34,896 nucleotides of DNA. Origin: a virus. Taxonomy: Duplodnaviria; Heunggongvirae; Uroviricota; Caudoviricetes. The stretch lies in IMG/VR virus record IMGVR_UViG_2548877009_000017, positions 1-34,896 of that record, one strand, 5' to 3'. Under the pieces are notes generated by a model. That model ran no database searches, was not told where the DNA came from, and was given only the letters and a program-made list of their open reading frames with translations. Shown here one piece after another: positions 20,647 to 30,355 of the stretch (position 1 is its first letter; each line of letters begins with the position of its first letter). The translations under genes and the position numbers were made by a program.

Positions 20647-20722
20647 TGGTGCTGTTTAACGGACTTGAACCGCTACCCATTCGCTTACAAGGCGACCGCT
20701 CTACCATTGGAGCTAAAACAGC
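20647..20722 (-). tRNA. tRNA-Thr (anticodon UGU)
   Basis: 76 nt on minus strand folds into cloverleaf by hand: 7-bp acceptor stem, D-arm GCTC/GAGC, anticodon loop CTTGTAA, T-loop TTCAAGT, 3' ACCA encoded. Confidence 0.65.
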
Positions 20723-20727
20723 ATGTT

Positions 20728-20802
20728 TGGCGGGACAGCGTGGACTCGAACCACGATAAGAAGGTTAACAGCCTTCCGTAATCACCTTTATACGACTGAC
20801 CC
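20728..20802 (-). tRNA. tRNA-Asn (anticodon GUU)
   Basis: 75 nt on minus strand: anticodon stem GAAGG/CCTTC with loop CTGTTAA, T-arm CGTGG-TTCGAGT-CCACG, 3' GCCA encoded; acceptor and D stems each have one mismatch. Confidence 0.6.
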
Positions 20803-27259: not shown

Positions 27260-27490
27260 AATCGAAGCAACTTGTCGTGCCAATCGAGCCATGTCGTCGT
27301 CGACAACACCCCATTCAAGAACAGCAAGCAGCATTGAGAACTTTGGAATCCAGTCCCTCTTCCACCTGCTGATCTGCGACTTATCAACGCCCACAGCTTC
27401 CGCTGTCTTCTCAGTTCCAAGCATTGCGATTTTGTTAAGCAACGCACTCTCGATTCTTAGAGCCTCGTTGCGTTTGTTTGCACGAACCAT
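27197..27490 (-). CDS. cII: Transcriptional activator CII
   Basis: 97 aa MVRANKRNEALRIESALLNKIAMLGTEKTAEAVGVDKSQISRWKRDW..., essentially identical to lambda CII. Confidence 0.95.
   Translation of the reverse strand: MVRANKRNEALRIESALLNKIAMLGTEKTAEAVGVDKSQISRWKRDWIPKFSMLLAVLEWGVVDDDMARLARQVASILTNKKRPAATERSDQIQMEF
27464..27481 (+). promoter_or_regulatory. pRE-type CII-activated promoter element (TTGC-N6-TTGC)
   Basis: TTGCGTTTGTTTGC at 27468-27481 on plus strand overlapping the cII 5' coding end, oriented toward cI, as in lambda pRE. Confidence 0.6.
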
Positions 27491-27548
27491 ATGTAAGTAT
27501 TTCCTTAACTAATAAGAAGTTATGCGCATCAACTTATGCGCGTTGTAT

Positions 27549-27592
27549 TCCCGCATTTCGGCGGGAATGATGACCATGACTGTTAAAGAGCG
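27549..27592 (-). promoter_or_regulatory. Candidate nutR (boxA plus boxB hairpin) between cro and cII
   Basis: On minus strand CGCTCTTTAA (boxA-like, 27584-27592) followed by hairpin CCCGC-cgaaat-GCGGG (27550-27565). Confidence 0.5.
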
Positions 27593-27598
27593 GTGTTA

Positions 27599-27793
27599 CT
27601 ATTTGTTTTTCTTGTTGCTTGGGAAAGGACGAACTTCCTCTCCAATCACACTGCCATCAGGCTTTACCGTAACCATAATGTTACGACCTGCCAGAATGGC
27701 CTTGCTGATAGCGCACTGGATTACACCAAAGTCACTGGCTGCTTTAGCCTGTCCATGGATTTTGGCGTAATCGGCAAGTGTCATTCGAATCAT
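27599..27793 (-). CDS. cro: Cro repressor (lambda Cro fold family)
   Basis: [62 protein letters not shown] parallels lambda Cro; ATG 27793 preceded by GGAGAG. Confidence 0.8.
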
Positions 27794-27822
27794 ATGCACT
27801 CTCCGTTATTAACCATGAACAA

Positions 27823-27851
27823 AGAATACTACAGGTATTCAAAGCAATCAA
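27823..27851 (-). promoter_or_regulatory. Candidate pR promoter
   Basis: Minus strand TTGATT (-35) - 17 nt - TATTCT (-10), overlapping the two OR palindromes, about 30 nt upstream of cro. Confidence 0.45.
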
Positions 27852-27865
27852 TACTCAGGGTATTT
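27824..27865. promoter_or_regulatory. Two candidate OR operator palindromes (AATAC-N5-GTATT type)
   Basis: GAATACtacagGTATTC (27824-27840) and CAATACtcaggGTATTT (27849-27865) in the cro-cI divergent intergenic region. Confidence 0.5.
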
Positions 27866-27899
27866 TTAGTTTAAGTACCTTAGCTATTAGAATTAAGCT

Positions 27900-28616
27900 A
27901 TGGAAAATAAAAAATCACTGACGACAGAACAGCTGGAAGACGCTAAGCGGCTTAAGGCTTTGTATGAGTCAAAAAAGAAAGAATTGGGAATAACCCAATA
28001 CTCAATCGCTGATGAACTGGGTATCACCCAAGGAGCGGTAGGGCATTATCTTAATGGCAGAAACGCGCTAAACGTTGAGGTTGCATCTGGTTTTGCACGA
28101 TTGTTGCAAGTCTCAATTGCTGATTTTAGCCAGTCAATTGCTGCCAAGGTTGCAGAACAGGCAGAAAGCCTTAAGAGCGATGCCAACGTAAGGTATGCAG
28201 GGGAATACAGAGCAGGAAAGAGGTATCCGGTGTTAAGCAGTATCCAGGCTGGCTCGTGGTGTGAAGCATGCGAACCATACACCATTAAAGACATAGATGT
28301 TTGGCTTGAGTCTGACGCGCATATTCAAGGTAATGCGTTCTGGCTTAAAGTGGAAGGTGATTCAATGACGGCACCGGTTGGGTTAAGCATTCCAGAGGGA
28401 ACATTCGTTCTTTTCGATACCGGAAGGGAGGCGATCAACGGCAGCTTGGTCATAGCAAAACTTTCTGACTCTAACGAAGCAACATTCAAGAAGCTGATAA
28501 TCGACGGCGGAAATAAATACCTCAAGGGACTTAACCCTGCATGGCCTCTCGTGCCAATCAATGGAAACTGCAAGATTATAGGCGTTGCAATTGAGACAAA
28601 ACTAAGGCTGGTTTGA
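27900..28616 (+). CDS. cI: CI repressor, lambda cI family (HTH N-domain plus LexA/S24-like autocleavage domain)
   Basis: MENKKSLTTEQLEDAKRLKALYESKKKELGITQ parallels lambda CI; C-terminal GDSM and KKL catalytic motifs; recognition-helix region differs from lambda; no SD upstream and TAGAAT -10 about 7 nt before the ATG suggests a leaderless pRM transcript. Confidence 0.9.
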   Translation: MENKKSLTTEQLEDAKRLKALYESKKKELGITQYSIADELGITQGAVGHYLNGRNALNVEVASGFARLLQVSIADFSQSIAAKVAEQAESLKSDANVRYAGEYRAGKRYPVLSSIQAGSWCEACEPYTIKDIDVWLESDAHIQGNAFWLKVEGDSMTAPVGLSIPEGTFVLFDTGREAINGSLVIAKLSDSNEATFKKLIIDGGNKYLKGLNPAWPLVPINGNCKIIGVAIETKLRLV

Positions 28617-28633
28617 TCACGCAAGGGGCGCTT

Positions 28634-29002
28634 ATGGTTGGAACCGCTATAGCAAGCTTTTTTGGGATGTTGGCAATCTCGACAATTTACGGCTTAGCGC
28701 ATGCTTTTATTGCGAAATCTCTATCAGAAAAAATAAGCCAGGCTTGGGCGCATAGATCAGCTCGTTTCATGATTCTAGTGATCATAGCAATACAAGGGAT
28801 ATCTGCATTTATCCTCTATGGTTCAAGCTTATACCTGTTGTATAAAGGCGCGACATTTACGCCTTACACCAGTGATTACGGAACTCTATACGATGGTAGT
28901 GAAGACATCTATATGGCTTGGATCGTTTTTGGTTTATCTATGGCCGTGTCTGTTGTAGCAGACATCATTAAGGTAATTCTCGTCTTAACCTTCGCTGACT
29001 AA
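28634..29002 (+). CDS. Small integral membrane protein of unknown function, co-oriented with and immediately downstream of cI
   Basis: 122-aa ORF from ATG 28634 preceded by AAGGGG; three to four predicted TM segments; occupies the position of lambda rexAB. Confidence 0.55.
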   Translation: MVGTAIASFFGMLAISTIYGLAHAFIAKSLSEKISQAWAHRSARFMILVIIAIQGISAFILYGSSLYLLYKGATFTPYTSDYGTLYDGSEDIYMAWIVFGLSMAVSVVADIIKVILVLTFAD

Positions 29003-29087
29003 CCTATAATCCCGGCAGCAATAGCTATCGGGATCCACTTCACATATCCCGCATAAAAAGCACTGAACAAGCAGACACCGAAAAAAT

Positions 29088-29174
29088 AAATATCCTTTGT
29101 ATTCATTTGCTTATCATTATTTCACCAAAAATAAATACCTTGGGTATTTACACAATAAAATACCTACCGTATTC
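29088..29174. promoter_or_regulatory. Candidate OL operators (three AATAC-N5-GTATT palindromes)
   Basis: AAATATcctttGTATTC (29088-29104), AAATACcttggGTATTT (29133-29149), AAATACctaccGTATTC (29158-29174). Confidence 0.5.
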
Positions 29175-29175
29175 T
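29147..29175 (+). promoter_or_regulatory. Candidate pL promoter
   Basis: TTTACA (-35, 29147-29152) - 17 nt - TATTCT (-10, 29170-29175), overlapping the last two OL palindromes. Confidence 0.45.
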
Positions 29176-29576
29176 TTAGCCATCAGCAGGACGCTGGAAG
29201 CCAAACGGAACAGCTTGGCAGGCTCTTTAACATTGATGGGATTGTCCCGCCGAAATGCGGGAACCAAAGAGTAGTTGGCTTTGGGGTGACGTGAAGTGCA
29301 GCTGCACGACGGCAACCGGAAGATAAGCACCCGGCGCGTCACCGCCAAAGTCAATTCCATAGGCGTTATGCAGCCGCCACCATATTCAAGAAAGCTGCAC
29401 AAGAGGTAGGAGGATTTATGTGAATACTTACATTCAATTGAGAGATTAATTAAATAGAACTGATCGAGCAGAGTCCATAAAGGCTCATAAATGCTCTTCC
29501 ATCCCCGTCTAATTGGCGGGGAAGGAAACCACTTTGTAATAAAAAAAATTCCAAAGTTGTTTCATCGGAGGTCAAC

Positions 29577-29876
29577 ATGACAGTGGTCATTACATATCTG
29601 GCTGACGATAACGCCAGAAATCGCCGCAGAGCACGCAGACAGGCTCAACGTGAACAGGCAATGCAAGAGCAGCGACTGGCGCGAAAAATTGCGCTAAAGC
29701 TCTCTGGTTGCGTCAGAGCAGATAAAGCAGCATCACTCGGAAGCCTTCGCTGCAAGAAGGCAGAAGAAGTCGAGCGTAAACAGAACCGTATTTACTACCG
29801 CAAGCCACGCAGTGAAATGGGTGTGACTTGTGTTGGTCGCCAGAAAATGAAATTAGGCAGCAAACCACTTATTTGA
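29577..29876 (+). CDS. N-like antitermination protein
   Basis: 99 aa with N-terminal arginine-rich motif DNARNRRRARRQAQREQ; first gene downstream of OL/pL; GGAGG before ATG. Confidence 0.55.
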   Translation: MTVVITYLADDNARNRRRARRQAQREQAMQEQRLARKIALKLSGCVRADKAASLGSLRCKKAEEVERKQNRIYYRKPRSEMGVTCVGRQKMKLGSKPLI

Positions 29877-29884
29877 GGTGATAT

Positions 29885-30355
29885 ATGACAAAATCATGGA
29901 GCGTACCTTTTCCTGAATCAGAAACTGAACATGATGGAATGCCTGTTTTCTGGAGATTCCAAGCGACAGTTGAAGAAGATGGAATCAAAATATTCGCACT
30001 TCAATATATAGCTTTTCATCAGACAGAGCATTATGCATGGTTGGTTCCTGCGCATTGGATTGTTAATTTTAAACCAGCACCAAATCAGTGGTTACAGGAA
30101 TGGAAACAAAGGAGAAATAGATATGCAATTAAGAAAGTAGCAAAAAATGCAGAAAGATCTTTTGCATTCCCGACGAAGAAACTTGCCATTGAAAGTTTAT
30201 TGCGCCGGAAGAAATACCATTTGATGAGAATCAAACAAGATTTGGCTGTTGTATCAACTCTTGTTGATGGGATGAAGAATATTGATACATCAACACCAGG
30301 TATTGAATATAACTTTGGACACAACCAAGAAACAGAAAACTGGGTGTTTTATTAG
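29885..30355 (+). CDS. Hypothetical protein, AT-rich moron-like gene
   Basis: 156-aa soluble protein with no recognised motifs; visibly lower GC than neighbours; GAGGTGA before ATG. Confidence 0.55.
   Translation: MTKSWSVPFPESETEHDGMPVFWRFQATVEEDGIKIFALQYIAFHQTEHYAWLVPAHWIVNFKPAPNQWLQEWKQRRNRYAIKKVAKNAERSFAFPTKKLAIESLLRRKKYHLMRIKQDLAVVSTLVDGMKNIDTSTPGIEYNFGHNQETENWVFY

What the first reader, a model, noticed from the sequence alone, without database searches (positions are those of the whole stretch)
28634..29002. Uncharacterised small membrane protein in the rexAB slot downstream of cI
A 122-aa protein with three to four TM segments starts 18 bp after cI, on the same strand with its own RBS, so it is probably expressed from pRM in the lysogen. 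In lambda this slot holds the rexA/rexB abortive-infection pair and in other lambdoid phages it is a known hotspot for superinfection-exclusion and defence cargo. The sequence does not look like RexB or SieB to me, so it is a candidate lysogen-expressed exclusion or defence factor of unknown type.
Basis: partly seen in the sequence, partly recalled or inferred. Interest (0 to 1): 0.6.

Follow-up and report, generated by a model that had tools for sequence, protein, structure and literature searches.

The report
HkaS: orphan membrane protein beside cI
The ORF is a real, conserved gene (hkaS of coliphage HK620) for a small three-helix inner-membrane protein that sits in the repressor operon of one lambdoid immunity type; it resembles no known protein, so it is a reasonable but untested candidate for a prophage factor that keeps out other phages.

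Summary
Window 28634-29002 (+) encodes 122 aa. It starts 17 nt after the cI stop codon, behind an AAGGGG Shine-Dalgarno, and has three (not four) hydrophobic helices.

It is not a new ORF. It is hkaS of phage HK620, annotated 'unknown' in the GenBank record. It occurs in all 16 sequenced phages with this cI type and in 146 of 5426 complete E. coli genomes.

It lies between cI and the OL operators, inside the mobile immunity cassette (about 27488 to 29264-29355). It was intact in 80 of 80 IMG/VR loci. It is under purifying selection (dN/dS about 0.14) but changes 4-5 times faster than cI.

It is an ORFan. An exhaustive profile search of 1.84 billion representatives found one further member. Pfam gave only a sub-threshold hit, and NCBIfam, PADLOC and the PDB gave none. 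There was no significant fold match, and no relation to RexB, SieA, SieB or 434 Hex.

Co-transcription with cI is inferred from the anatomy and from precedents in the same slot (rexAB, hex, bstA). It was not shown here.

Best guess, at about 45%: a single-component inner-membrane exclusion or defence protein. I found no functional data, so this is a moderate-interest wet-lab candidate, not a surprise.

The parts
27488..29264 (.). HK620-type immunity cassette (nutR side, cro, OR, cI, hkaS, OL/pL, nutL), the unit that moves between phages
   Evidence: In 80 IMG/VR loci the homology block around hkaS ends at 27487/27488 on the left in 69 of 75 uncut cases. On the right it ends at 29264-29355 in 60 of 80.
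27824..27889 (.). OR1, OR2 and OR3 operator 17-mers (27824-27840, 27849-27865, 27873-27889)
   Evidence: A half-site scan found exactly six operator-like sites in 27700-29300. They agree with the HK620 annotation of OR1-OR3.
27888..27893 (+). Putative pRM -10 hexamer TAGAAT, 6 nt before the cI ATG (this would give a leaderless cI mRNA, as in lambda)
   Evidence: Read from the sequence. This is an inference by analogy with lambda pRM and is not annotated in HK620.
27900..28616 (+). cI repressor, HK620 type (HTH_3 plus Peptidase_S24), 238 aa
   Evidence: Pfam hits at E = 5e-24 and 8e-10. It is 99.6-100% identical to cI of HK620, mEpX2 and HK140.
28623..28628 (+). Shine-Dalgarno AAGGGG of hkaS
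   Evidence: It lies 5 nt upstream of the ATG.
28634..29002 (+). hkaS: 122-aa predicted three-TM inner-membrane protein (the finding)
29008..29034 (+). Hairpin directly after the hkaS stop codon (AAUCCCGG...CGGGAU), with no U-tract
   Evidence: The RNA fold centroid is -13.7 kcal/mol. A hairpin occupies the same position in the Hafnia-type loci, and in L003 with a different sequence (GACCCGGGcatCCCGGGTC). Its role is unknown.
29088..29174 (.). OL operator 17-mers (29088-29104, 29133-29149, 29158-29174)
   Evidence: HK620 annotates OL1-OL3 in the same region.
29147..29175 (+). pL promoter (TTTACA, 17 nt spacer, TATTCT)
   Evidence: The promoter scan found it. It coincides with the HK620 pL annotation shifted into window coordinates.
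29222..29230 (+). nutL boxA-like GCTCTTTAA
   Evidence: HK620 and HK140 annotate nutL/boxA at this place.

Best explanation
The ORF is hkaS, an accessory gene of the HK620-type immunity cassette.

**Shown here**
- It is a real protein-coding gene under purifying selection.
- It encodes a 122-aa protein that is almost entirely three long hydrophobic helices, with a conserved basic loop 1 and an acidic, variable loop 2.
- It always sits 17-20 nt after one cI type and before that repressor's OL operators.
- It has no detectable relative outside this cassette.

**Inferred**
- It is transcribed with cI from pRM in the lysogen, and from pRE during establishment of lysogeny.
- It inserts into the inner membrane N-out/C-in, with loop 2 (residues 71-91) in the periplasm.
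- It acts as a single-component exclusion or defence factor against superinfecting heteroimmune phages at the cytoplasmic membrane. The most likely mechanism is interference with DNA translocation or with phage or host membrane proteins needed for it. This is how P22 SieA is reported to work; T4 Imm and HK97 gp15 are analogues from my own knowledge. A less likely mechanism is membrane-level abortive infection.

Its strict linkage to cI needs no functional coupling. The gene lies between cI and OL, so any recombinant that keeps a working immunity carries it along.
For: **The gene is real and constrained.** It is 122 codons in four lineages with saturated dS; dN/dS is 0.14. It was intact in 80 of 80 IMG/VR loci. 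Intact clusters hold 525, 53 and 45 member sequences, against 1-2 for the frameshifted forms.

**Membrane protein.** Three hydrophobic segments. AF2 gives three long helices at pLDDT 92. The charge asymmetry is conserved.

**Operon context.** There is a 17-nt gap after cI and a good SD. The scan found no + strand promoter-like site between the cI start and pL, and no + strand terminator-like site in 27500-29900. HK620 annotators placed tIMM downstream of hkaS. Genes in the same slot are co-transcribed with the repressor or highly expressed in lysogens: hex of 434 from pRM (PMC3564112) and bstA of BTP1 (PMC8585504). Lambda holds rexAB at this place.

**Accessory, not core.**
- HF4s carries a frameshifted copy yet has a complete-genome phage record.
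- The nearest outgroup cI genes (62-71% identity) have no hkaS.
- The gene rides on P22-like, lambda-like, HK97-like and Stx-phage genomes.

**Fast evolution.** dN is 4-5 times that of cI (0.100 against 0.022; 0.31-0.42 against 0.074-0.085). The predicted periplasmic loop is the least conserved part, with 19% invariant positions against 39-44% elsewhere. This is what one expects of a surface that contacts changing partners.
Against: There is no functional evidence at all: no expression data for this gene, no phenotype and no homology to any characterised exclusion or defence protein.

SieA-type injection blockers travel with the virion type they target. hkaS travels with the immunity type across unrelated virion types, so a virion-specific target is not obvious.

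Genes in this slot are not always defences. 434 Hex stabilises the repressor against RecA.

Fast evolution with a variable loop is also what relaxed constraint on a small membrane protein would give.

The hairpin after the gene lacks a U-tract, so the 3' end of the operon is not defined.
Confidence: 0.45

Rival explanations
1. HkaS is a lysogenic-conversion or host-fitness factor unrelated to phages. A small inner-membrane protein could modulate a host transporter, an envelope-stress pathway or a membrane protease to benefit the lysogen.
For: The anatomy is the same as for the best explanation: lysogen operon, membrane protein, purifying selection. The gene is widespread in natural E. coli, in 146 of 5426 complete genomes from many sources, and also occurs in Salmonella and Hafnia. 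The LF82 transcriptome study lists many lysogen-expressed prophage genes with no known defence role, including a 'transmembrane protein' near a cI gene (PMC9928086).
Against: No domain, motif or fold links it to any host pathway. Characterised genes in the cI-N slot act on phage competition or prophage stability, not on host metabolism.
Confidence: 0.25
2. HkaS serves the prophage's own lysis-lysogeny decision or lysogen stability, as 434 Hex does. It might act through a membrane-bound host factor, for example by altering CII/CIII turnover or induction frequency.
For: The gene is invariably linked to one cI type through four lineages with saturated synonymous divergence. It would also be made from pRE during establishment of lysogeny (inference from position). 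The 434 gene in the same slot protects the repressor from RecA-stimulated cleavage (PMC3564112).
Against: Its position between cI and OL is enough to explain the linkage. HkaS has almost no cytoplasmic mass (one 16-residue loop) with which to contact RecA or cI. It is unrelated to Hex (hhalign probability 0.1%). HF4s has a frameshifted copy.
Confidence: 0.15
3. HkaS is a stand-alone RexB-like or holin-like membrane-permeabilising abortive-infection effector. It would be held inactive in the lysogen and triggered directly by an infecting phage.
Confidence: 0.1
4. hkaS is a non-functional ORF that persists only by hitch-hiking between cI and OL.
For: Its position protects it from loss by homologous exchange. 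Rare frameshifted or internally deleted alleles exist.
Against: dN/dS is 0.10-0.15 where it can be measured. The ORF keeps exactly 122 codons despite 42-56% amino-acid divergence. The SD, the start and the C-terminal VLTFAD motif are conserved. It was intact in 80 of 80 loci.
Confidence: 0.03

Closest known systems
HkaS of coliphage HK620 (AAK28867.1; phrog_6534; WP_000233124.1)
   Same: It is the same gene: 96.7% identical protein, same length, same position between cI and tIMM/OL.
   Different: Nothing of substance differs; the window allele has private substitutions (K71, Y93). The family has no assigned function.
Lambda RexB (with RexA), an abortive-infection pair
   Same: It occupies the same genomic slot, downstream of cI and before OL on the cI strand. 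It is also a small polytopic inner-membrane protein.
   Different: No sequence relation (hhalign probability 1.2%; no PADLOC or PHROG hit). HkaS has three TM helices, not the four I recall for RexB. There is no RexA partner.
P22 SieA, a superinfection-exclusion protein
   Same: SieA is a small prophage-expressed inner-membrane protein with three predicted TM helices (PMC10883804). It is the best mechanistic analogue for a block on DNA entry.
   Different: No sequence relation (probability 0.3%). HkaS lacks the conserved cytoplasmic FxRYPxEAxxFNK motif. It is 122 aa against 162-164 aa. sieA lies next to the ejection-protein genes with its own promoter. hkaS is also carried by phages that are not P22-like.
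Phage 434 Hex
   Same: It is the gene directly after cI; the 2013 study reports that it is co-transcribed from pRM.
   Different: Unrelated in sequence (probability 0.1%). Hex has a single N-terminal hydrophobic segment and a soluble body. Its reported activity is protection of the repressor from RecA.
BstA of Salmonella phage BTP1
   Same: It lies downstream of the prophage repressor, is highly expressed in lysogeny and acts as a defence (PMC8585504).
   Different: HkaS gave no hit in PADLOC. I assume that library includes BstA, and I recall BstA as a larger soluble DNA-associated Abi protein with a cognate aba element; neither point was checked here.

Membership tests
HkaS / phrog_6534 | Full-length sequence match to the family profile | tested here: met
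   E = 1.7e-78 over residues 1-122 of a 122-position profile. The protein is 96.7-97.5% identical to HkaS in 15 phage records, and 91% to the frameshifted HF4s copy.
HkaS / phrog_6534 | Position directly after an HK620-type cI and before OL/pL | tested here: met
RexB (lambda RexAB) | Sequence homology to RexB | tested here: not met
   hhalign probability 1.2%. No PADLOC hit, and no PHROG hit other than its own family.
RexB (lambda RexAB) | Adjacent RexA partner gene | tested here: not met
   Only 17 nt lie between cI and hkaS, and OL follows 85 nt after hkaS.
RexB (lambda RexAB) | Location in the cI operon between cI and OL | tested here: met
SieB (P22/lambda) | Sequence homology to SieB | tested here: not met
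   hhalign probability 0.1%.
SieB (P22/lambda) | Location beyond N, on the opposite strand, with its own promoter | tested here: not met
   P22 sieB lies beyond gene 24 on the opposite strand. hkaS lies between cI and OL.
SieA (P22-like phages) | Sequence homology, including the FxRYPxEAxxFNK motif | tested here: not met
   hhalign probability 0.3%. The motif described in PMC10883804 is absent from the 122-aa sequence.
SieA (P22-like phages) | Inner-membrane protein with three TM helices | tested here: inconclusive
   Three TM helices are predicted. Membrane localisation has not been tested experimentally.
SieA (P22-like phages) | Blocks DNA injection by P22-like phages | not testable with these tools
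   This needs plating and K+ efflux or DNA-entry assays.
434 Hex | Sequence homology to Hex | tested here: not met
   hhalign probability 0.1%. The architecture also differs.
Class I holin (lambda S / P22 gp13 type) | Three TM helices N-out/C-in, a charged C-terminal cytoplasmic tail, and a place in the lysis cassette | tested here: not met
   The predicted topology is similar. However, the protein ends at the last helix (…VLTFAD) with no basic tail, lies in the immunity region, and matches no holin family in Pfam or PHROGs. The holin criteria are from my own knowledge.
Known anti-phage defence systems (PADLOC-DB v2) | Match to any defence-protein model | tested here: not met
   No families at E <= 1.

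The most novel reading that the evidence does not exclude
HkaS founds a new family of single-gene, 122-aa, all-transmembrane prophage defence proteins. It is expressed from the repressor operon and protects against heteroimmune phages of several virion types. It could do so by acting on a shared inner-membrane step of genome entry, or as a self-contained sensor-effector in the membrane. Its variable periplasmic loop would set specificity.
Probability: 0.25. Interest if true: 0.6.

Novelty: new member of a known kind. Interest (0 to 1): 0.4.

Why it matters
If HkaS is an exclusion or defence factor, it would be one of the smallest stand-alone ones known. It has no relatives among described systems.

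The gene is already sitting in tractable model phages: HK620, HK630, HK140 and mEpX2. It is also present in Stx2c-converting phages and in about 2.7% of complete E. coli genomes.

It would add a third kind of occupant, alongside rexAB and bstA, to the cI-N hotspot. It would also give a clean case of a defence gene that rides inside an immunity cassette, not with a virion module.

If it is not a defence, it is still an unexplained lysogen-operon membrane protein kept intact under selection, and a simple knockout or plasmid test would settle its role.

Tried and rejected
**Remote homology.** Pfam gave only a sub-threshold Cation_ATPase_C hit (18.7 bits against a 27.3 cut-off), which I read as generic TM similarity. 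NCBIfam and PADLOC gave nothing. The word-indexed search of 5.8 billion proteins found 10 clusters, all the same family. The exhaustive profile search of 1.84 billion representatives found one real extra member, one fragment and one repeat artefact, P0013. A PDB sequence search found nothing.

**Pairwise profile tests.** RexB, SieA, SieB and Hex were all negative.

**Species-representative genomes.** The pattern scan of GTDB representatives found no relative.

**Literature.** The term 'hkaS' returned only fungal herbarium codes. Searches on HK620 with exclusion, repressor or transcriptome terms, on mEpX2, and on lambdoid defence hotspots found nothing on this gene. The svsR sRNA paper (PMC12803456) and the HepS paper (PMC13043305) proved irrelevant.

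**A second gene.** The 35-aa hydrophobic ORF on the minus strand (28999-29106, annotated in HF4s) is rejected. It stops after 12 codons in the Hafnia-type loci (my reading of the sequences), is absent in L003, and is disrupted at its start in about 20 of 81 E. coli-type loci.

**A diverged analogue.** I looked for a similar gene after the next-closest cI genes (62-71% identity). There is no ORF in Serratia OS31, an unrelated soluble ORF in Cronobacter ENT39118, and a different arrangement in Fostie.

Full report
**1. What is there**

The window is a P22-like (Lederbergvirus-type) mosaic phage or prophage. It is closest to phages 611R6, HF4s, HK620 and Sf6. Around the finding the layout is classical lambdoid:

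- cro, 27599-27799, minus strand
- three OR operator 17-mers, 27824-27889
- cI, 27900-28616, plus strand (HTH_3 plus Peptidase_S24)
- the ORF in question, 28634-29002, plus strand
- three OL operator 17-mers, 29088-29174, overlapping pL at 29147-29175
- a nutL boxA at 29222-29230
- N, 29577-29876, plus strand

The ORF is 122 codons. It starts 17 nt after the cI stop codon and has AAGGGG 5 nt upstream of its ATG.

**2. It is a real gene, and it already has a name**

Megablast of the cI-to-N interval finds the same arrangement in HK620. There the gene is annotated hkaS, 'unknown', and is followed by the annotators' tIMM, OL3-OL1, pL and nutL. The protein matches phrog_6534 ('unknown function') over its whole length at E = 1.7e-78. 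The exact sequence is WP_000233124.1, 'hypothetical protein'.

Evidence that it is a functional gene:

- Relatives in four lineages are all exactly 122 codons: the E. coli type, a Hafnia type (82% identity) and two metagenomic lineages (52% and 58%). The start, the SD and the C-terminal VLTFAD motif are conserved.
- Against the Hafnia type, dS is 0.74 and dN/dS is 0.14.
- In 80 IMG/VR loci the ORF was intact in all 80.
- Among E. coli-type alleles, amino-acid changes are mostly conservative (I/V/L/M, S/T).
- Frameshifted or internally deleted alleles exist but are rare: 1-2 member sequences each, against 525, 53 and 45 for the intact clusters.
- Phage HF4s carries a frameshifted copy, so the gene is dispensable for phage growth.

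**3. The protein**

Hydropathy gives three segments: residues 1-27, 44-70 and 92-121.

AlphaFold2, run on a five-sequence alignment, gives a confident antiparallel three-helix bundle (pLDDT 92.4, pTM 0.80). The helices are 2-29, 41-74 and 89-121. There is a short helix at 31-38 in loop 1 and a beta-hairpin at about 78-87 in loop 2.

In all four lineages loop 1 carries 3-4 basic and 0-1 acidic residues. Loop 2 carries 0-1 basic and 3-4 acidic residues. By the positive-inside rule this predicts N-terminus out, loop 1 in the cytoplasm, loop 2 in the periplasm and C-terminus in.

Positions invariant in all four lineages include polar or charged residues inside the helices: R44, Q54, S65, S102, D110 and K113. 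Loop 2 is the least conserved part, with 19% invariant positions against 39-44% elsewhere.

**4. It is an ORFan**

| Search | Result |
|---|---|
| Pfam | only a sub-threshold Cation_ATPase_C hit |
| NCBIfam, PADLOC | nothing |
| Word-indexed search, 5.8 billion proteins | 10 clusters, all this family (Escherichia, Hafnia; also Salmonella) |
| Exhaustive profile search, 1.84 billion representatives | one further true member |
| PDB sequence search | nothing |
| Foldseek against BFVD / PDB | best E = 0.35 / 0.84 |

Profile-profile comparison with proteins that might be expected in this role was negative in every case:

| Protein | hhalign probability |
|---|---|
| Lambda RexB | 1.2% |
| P22 SieA | 0.3% |
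| P22 SieB | 0.1% |
| 434 Hex | 0.1% |

**5. Context: a fixed passenger of one immunity cassette**

- In the phage collection, exactly 16 records have a cI at least 99% identical to the window's. The same 16 records are the only ones with HkaS.
- Those records span different virion types: P22-like (HK620, HF4s, 611R6), Hendrixvirinae (HK140) and Sepvirinae/Stx phages (phi296, phi367) by the record taxonomy, plus HK630 and mEpX2, which I take to be lambda-like siphoviruses, and the Stx2c-converting phages.
- In every divergent relative the gene again lies 17-20 nt after the same cI type and before N.
- In 80 IMG/VR loci the block of homology to the window ends at 27487/27488 on the left in 69 of 75 uncut cases. 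That point is the cII/nutR junction. On the right it ends at 29264-29355, just past nutL, in 60 of 80.

hkaS therefore lies inside the classical 'imm' unit, between cI and the OL operators that cI must bind. This position alone explains the strict linkage. Any recombinant that keeps cI together with both operator sets carries hkaS.

The gene is nevertheless cargo, not core. The next-closest cI genes (62-71% identity) are followed by no ORF (Serratia OS31), by unrelated soluble ORFs (Cronobacter ENT39118, Erwinia phage 49) or by a different arrangement (Fostie). P22 has nothing between c2 and OL. Lambda has rexAB there and 434 has hex.

hkaS also evolves much faster than its neighbour. dN is 0.100 against 0.022 for cI at equal dS, and 0.31-0.42 against 0.074-0.085 in the deep comparisons. 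Its G+C content is slightly low: 41.2% against 45.6% for cI.

It is present in 146 of 5426 complete E. coli genomes, usually as a single copy.

**6. Expression (inferred)**

The scan found no sigma-70-like site on the plus strand between the cI start and pL. It also found no intrinsic-terminator-like site on the plus strand anywhere in 27500-29900. A TAGAAT hexamer 6 nt before the cI ATG fits a lambda-like leaderless pRM transcript; this is my reading of the sequence.

The gene should therefore be made with cI from pRM in lysogens, and from pRE during establishment. Precedents for the slot support this. hex is reported on the pRM mRNA (PMC3564112), and bstA is reported as highly expressed in lysogeny (PMC8585504).

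I found no direct expression data for hkaS. The end of the operon is unclear. A hairpin conserved in position follows the stop codon (29008-29034) but has no U-tract. HK620's 'tIMM' annotation maps to 29084-29114.

**7. What it most likely does**

I rank the explanations as follows:

1. A single-component inner-membrane exclusion or defence protein, about 0.45. It would most plausibly interfere with genome entry at the cytoplasmic membrane. This resembles what is reported for P22 SieA, which also has three predicted TM helices and is expressed from the prophage (PMC10883804).
2. A host-fitness factor, 0.25.
3. A modulator of the prophage's own stability or lysis-lysogeny decision, in the manner of Hex, 0.15.
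4. A stand-alone RexB-like or holin-like permeabilising abortive-infection effector, 0.10.
5. A non-functional hitch-hiker, 0.03.

The arguments for the first are the slot, the membrane location, the dispensability, the fast evolution and the variable periplasmic loop.

The main arguments against it are the complete lack of functional data and the fact that the gene tracks immunity type, not virion type. The latter is not what a virion-specific injection blocker would do.

**8. Novelty and verdict**

The ORF itself is known: it is named in the HK620 GenBank record. Its function is not, and no paper I could search addresses it.

I file it as a new member of a known kind, namely accessory genes carried in the repressor operon of lambdoid prophages. 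It belongs to a protein family with no relatives.

Interest is moderate (0.4). It is a clean, common and experimentally easy candidate, but it is not a surprise.

Noticed in passing
window 28999-29106 (- strand): A 35-aa hydrophobic ORF (MNTKDIYFFGVCLFSAFYAGYVKWIPIAIAAGIIG) converges on the hkaS stop codon and is annotated as a gene in phage HF4s. It stops after 12 codons in the Hafnia-type loci (my reading of the sequences), is absent in L003, and its start is disrupted in about 20 of 81 E. coli-type loci. It is probably not a gene.
   Followed up: yes
window 29008-29034 (+ strand): A hairpin lies directly after the hkaS stop codon. It is conserved in position across lineages, with a different sequence in L003, but has no U-tract. 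It may be a 3' end or processing signal of the cI-hkaS transcript, distinct from HK620's annotated tIMM, which maps to about 29084-29114.
   Followed up: partly
window 29264-29576: The stretch between nutL and N is a mosaic insertion relative to HK620. It is shared with HK140, and CUS-3 labels it a 'boundary sequence' (bsq5). It contains a minus-strand terminator-like hairpin at 29349-29330. Right-hand cassette boundaries cluster at 29264-29355.
   Followed up: partly
window 29885-30355 (+ strand): A 156-aa ORF directly after N matches phrog_1636 (unknown function, E = 1e-111). It has low G+C (36.7%) and is another uncharacterised early-left gene. SieB-like genes occupy the region after N in HK620 and HK140, but not here.
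   Followed up: no
window 20650-20802 (- strand): Two adjacent tRNA genes lie inside the phage (Rfam tRNA, 61 and 55 bits).
   Followed up: no
window 3032-3325 (+ strand): A 97-aa ORF between the large ejection-protein gene (3415-5808) and the tailspike gene (1045-2991) looks to me like a ribbon-helix-helix Mnt/Arc-type protein. No SieA-like gene occupies this place, which is where P22 has sieA.
   Followed up: no
window 29088-29104 compared with HK620 OL3 (maps to 29111-29127): My half-site scan places the third OL operator-like 17-mer at 29088-29104. The HK620 record's OL3 maps 23 nt further right, so the annotation and the sequence pattern disagree.
   Followed up: partly
L015 2609-3013 (phage 434 hex): 434 Hex, annotated 'repressor protection protein', begins with what looks like a signal peptide or lipoprotein leader (MIRIAALLSILLTTSANSEC). 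That is odd for a protein reported to act on RecA and the repressor in the cytoplasm.
   Followed up: no
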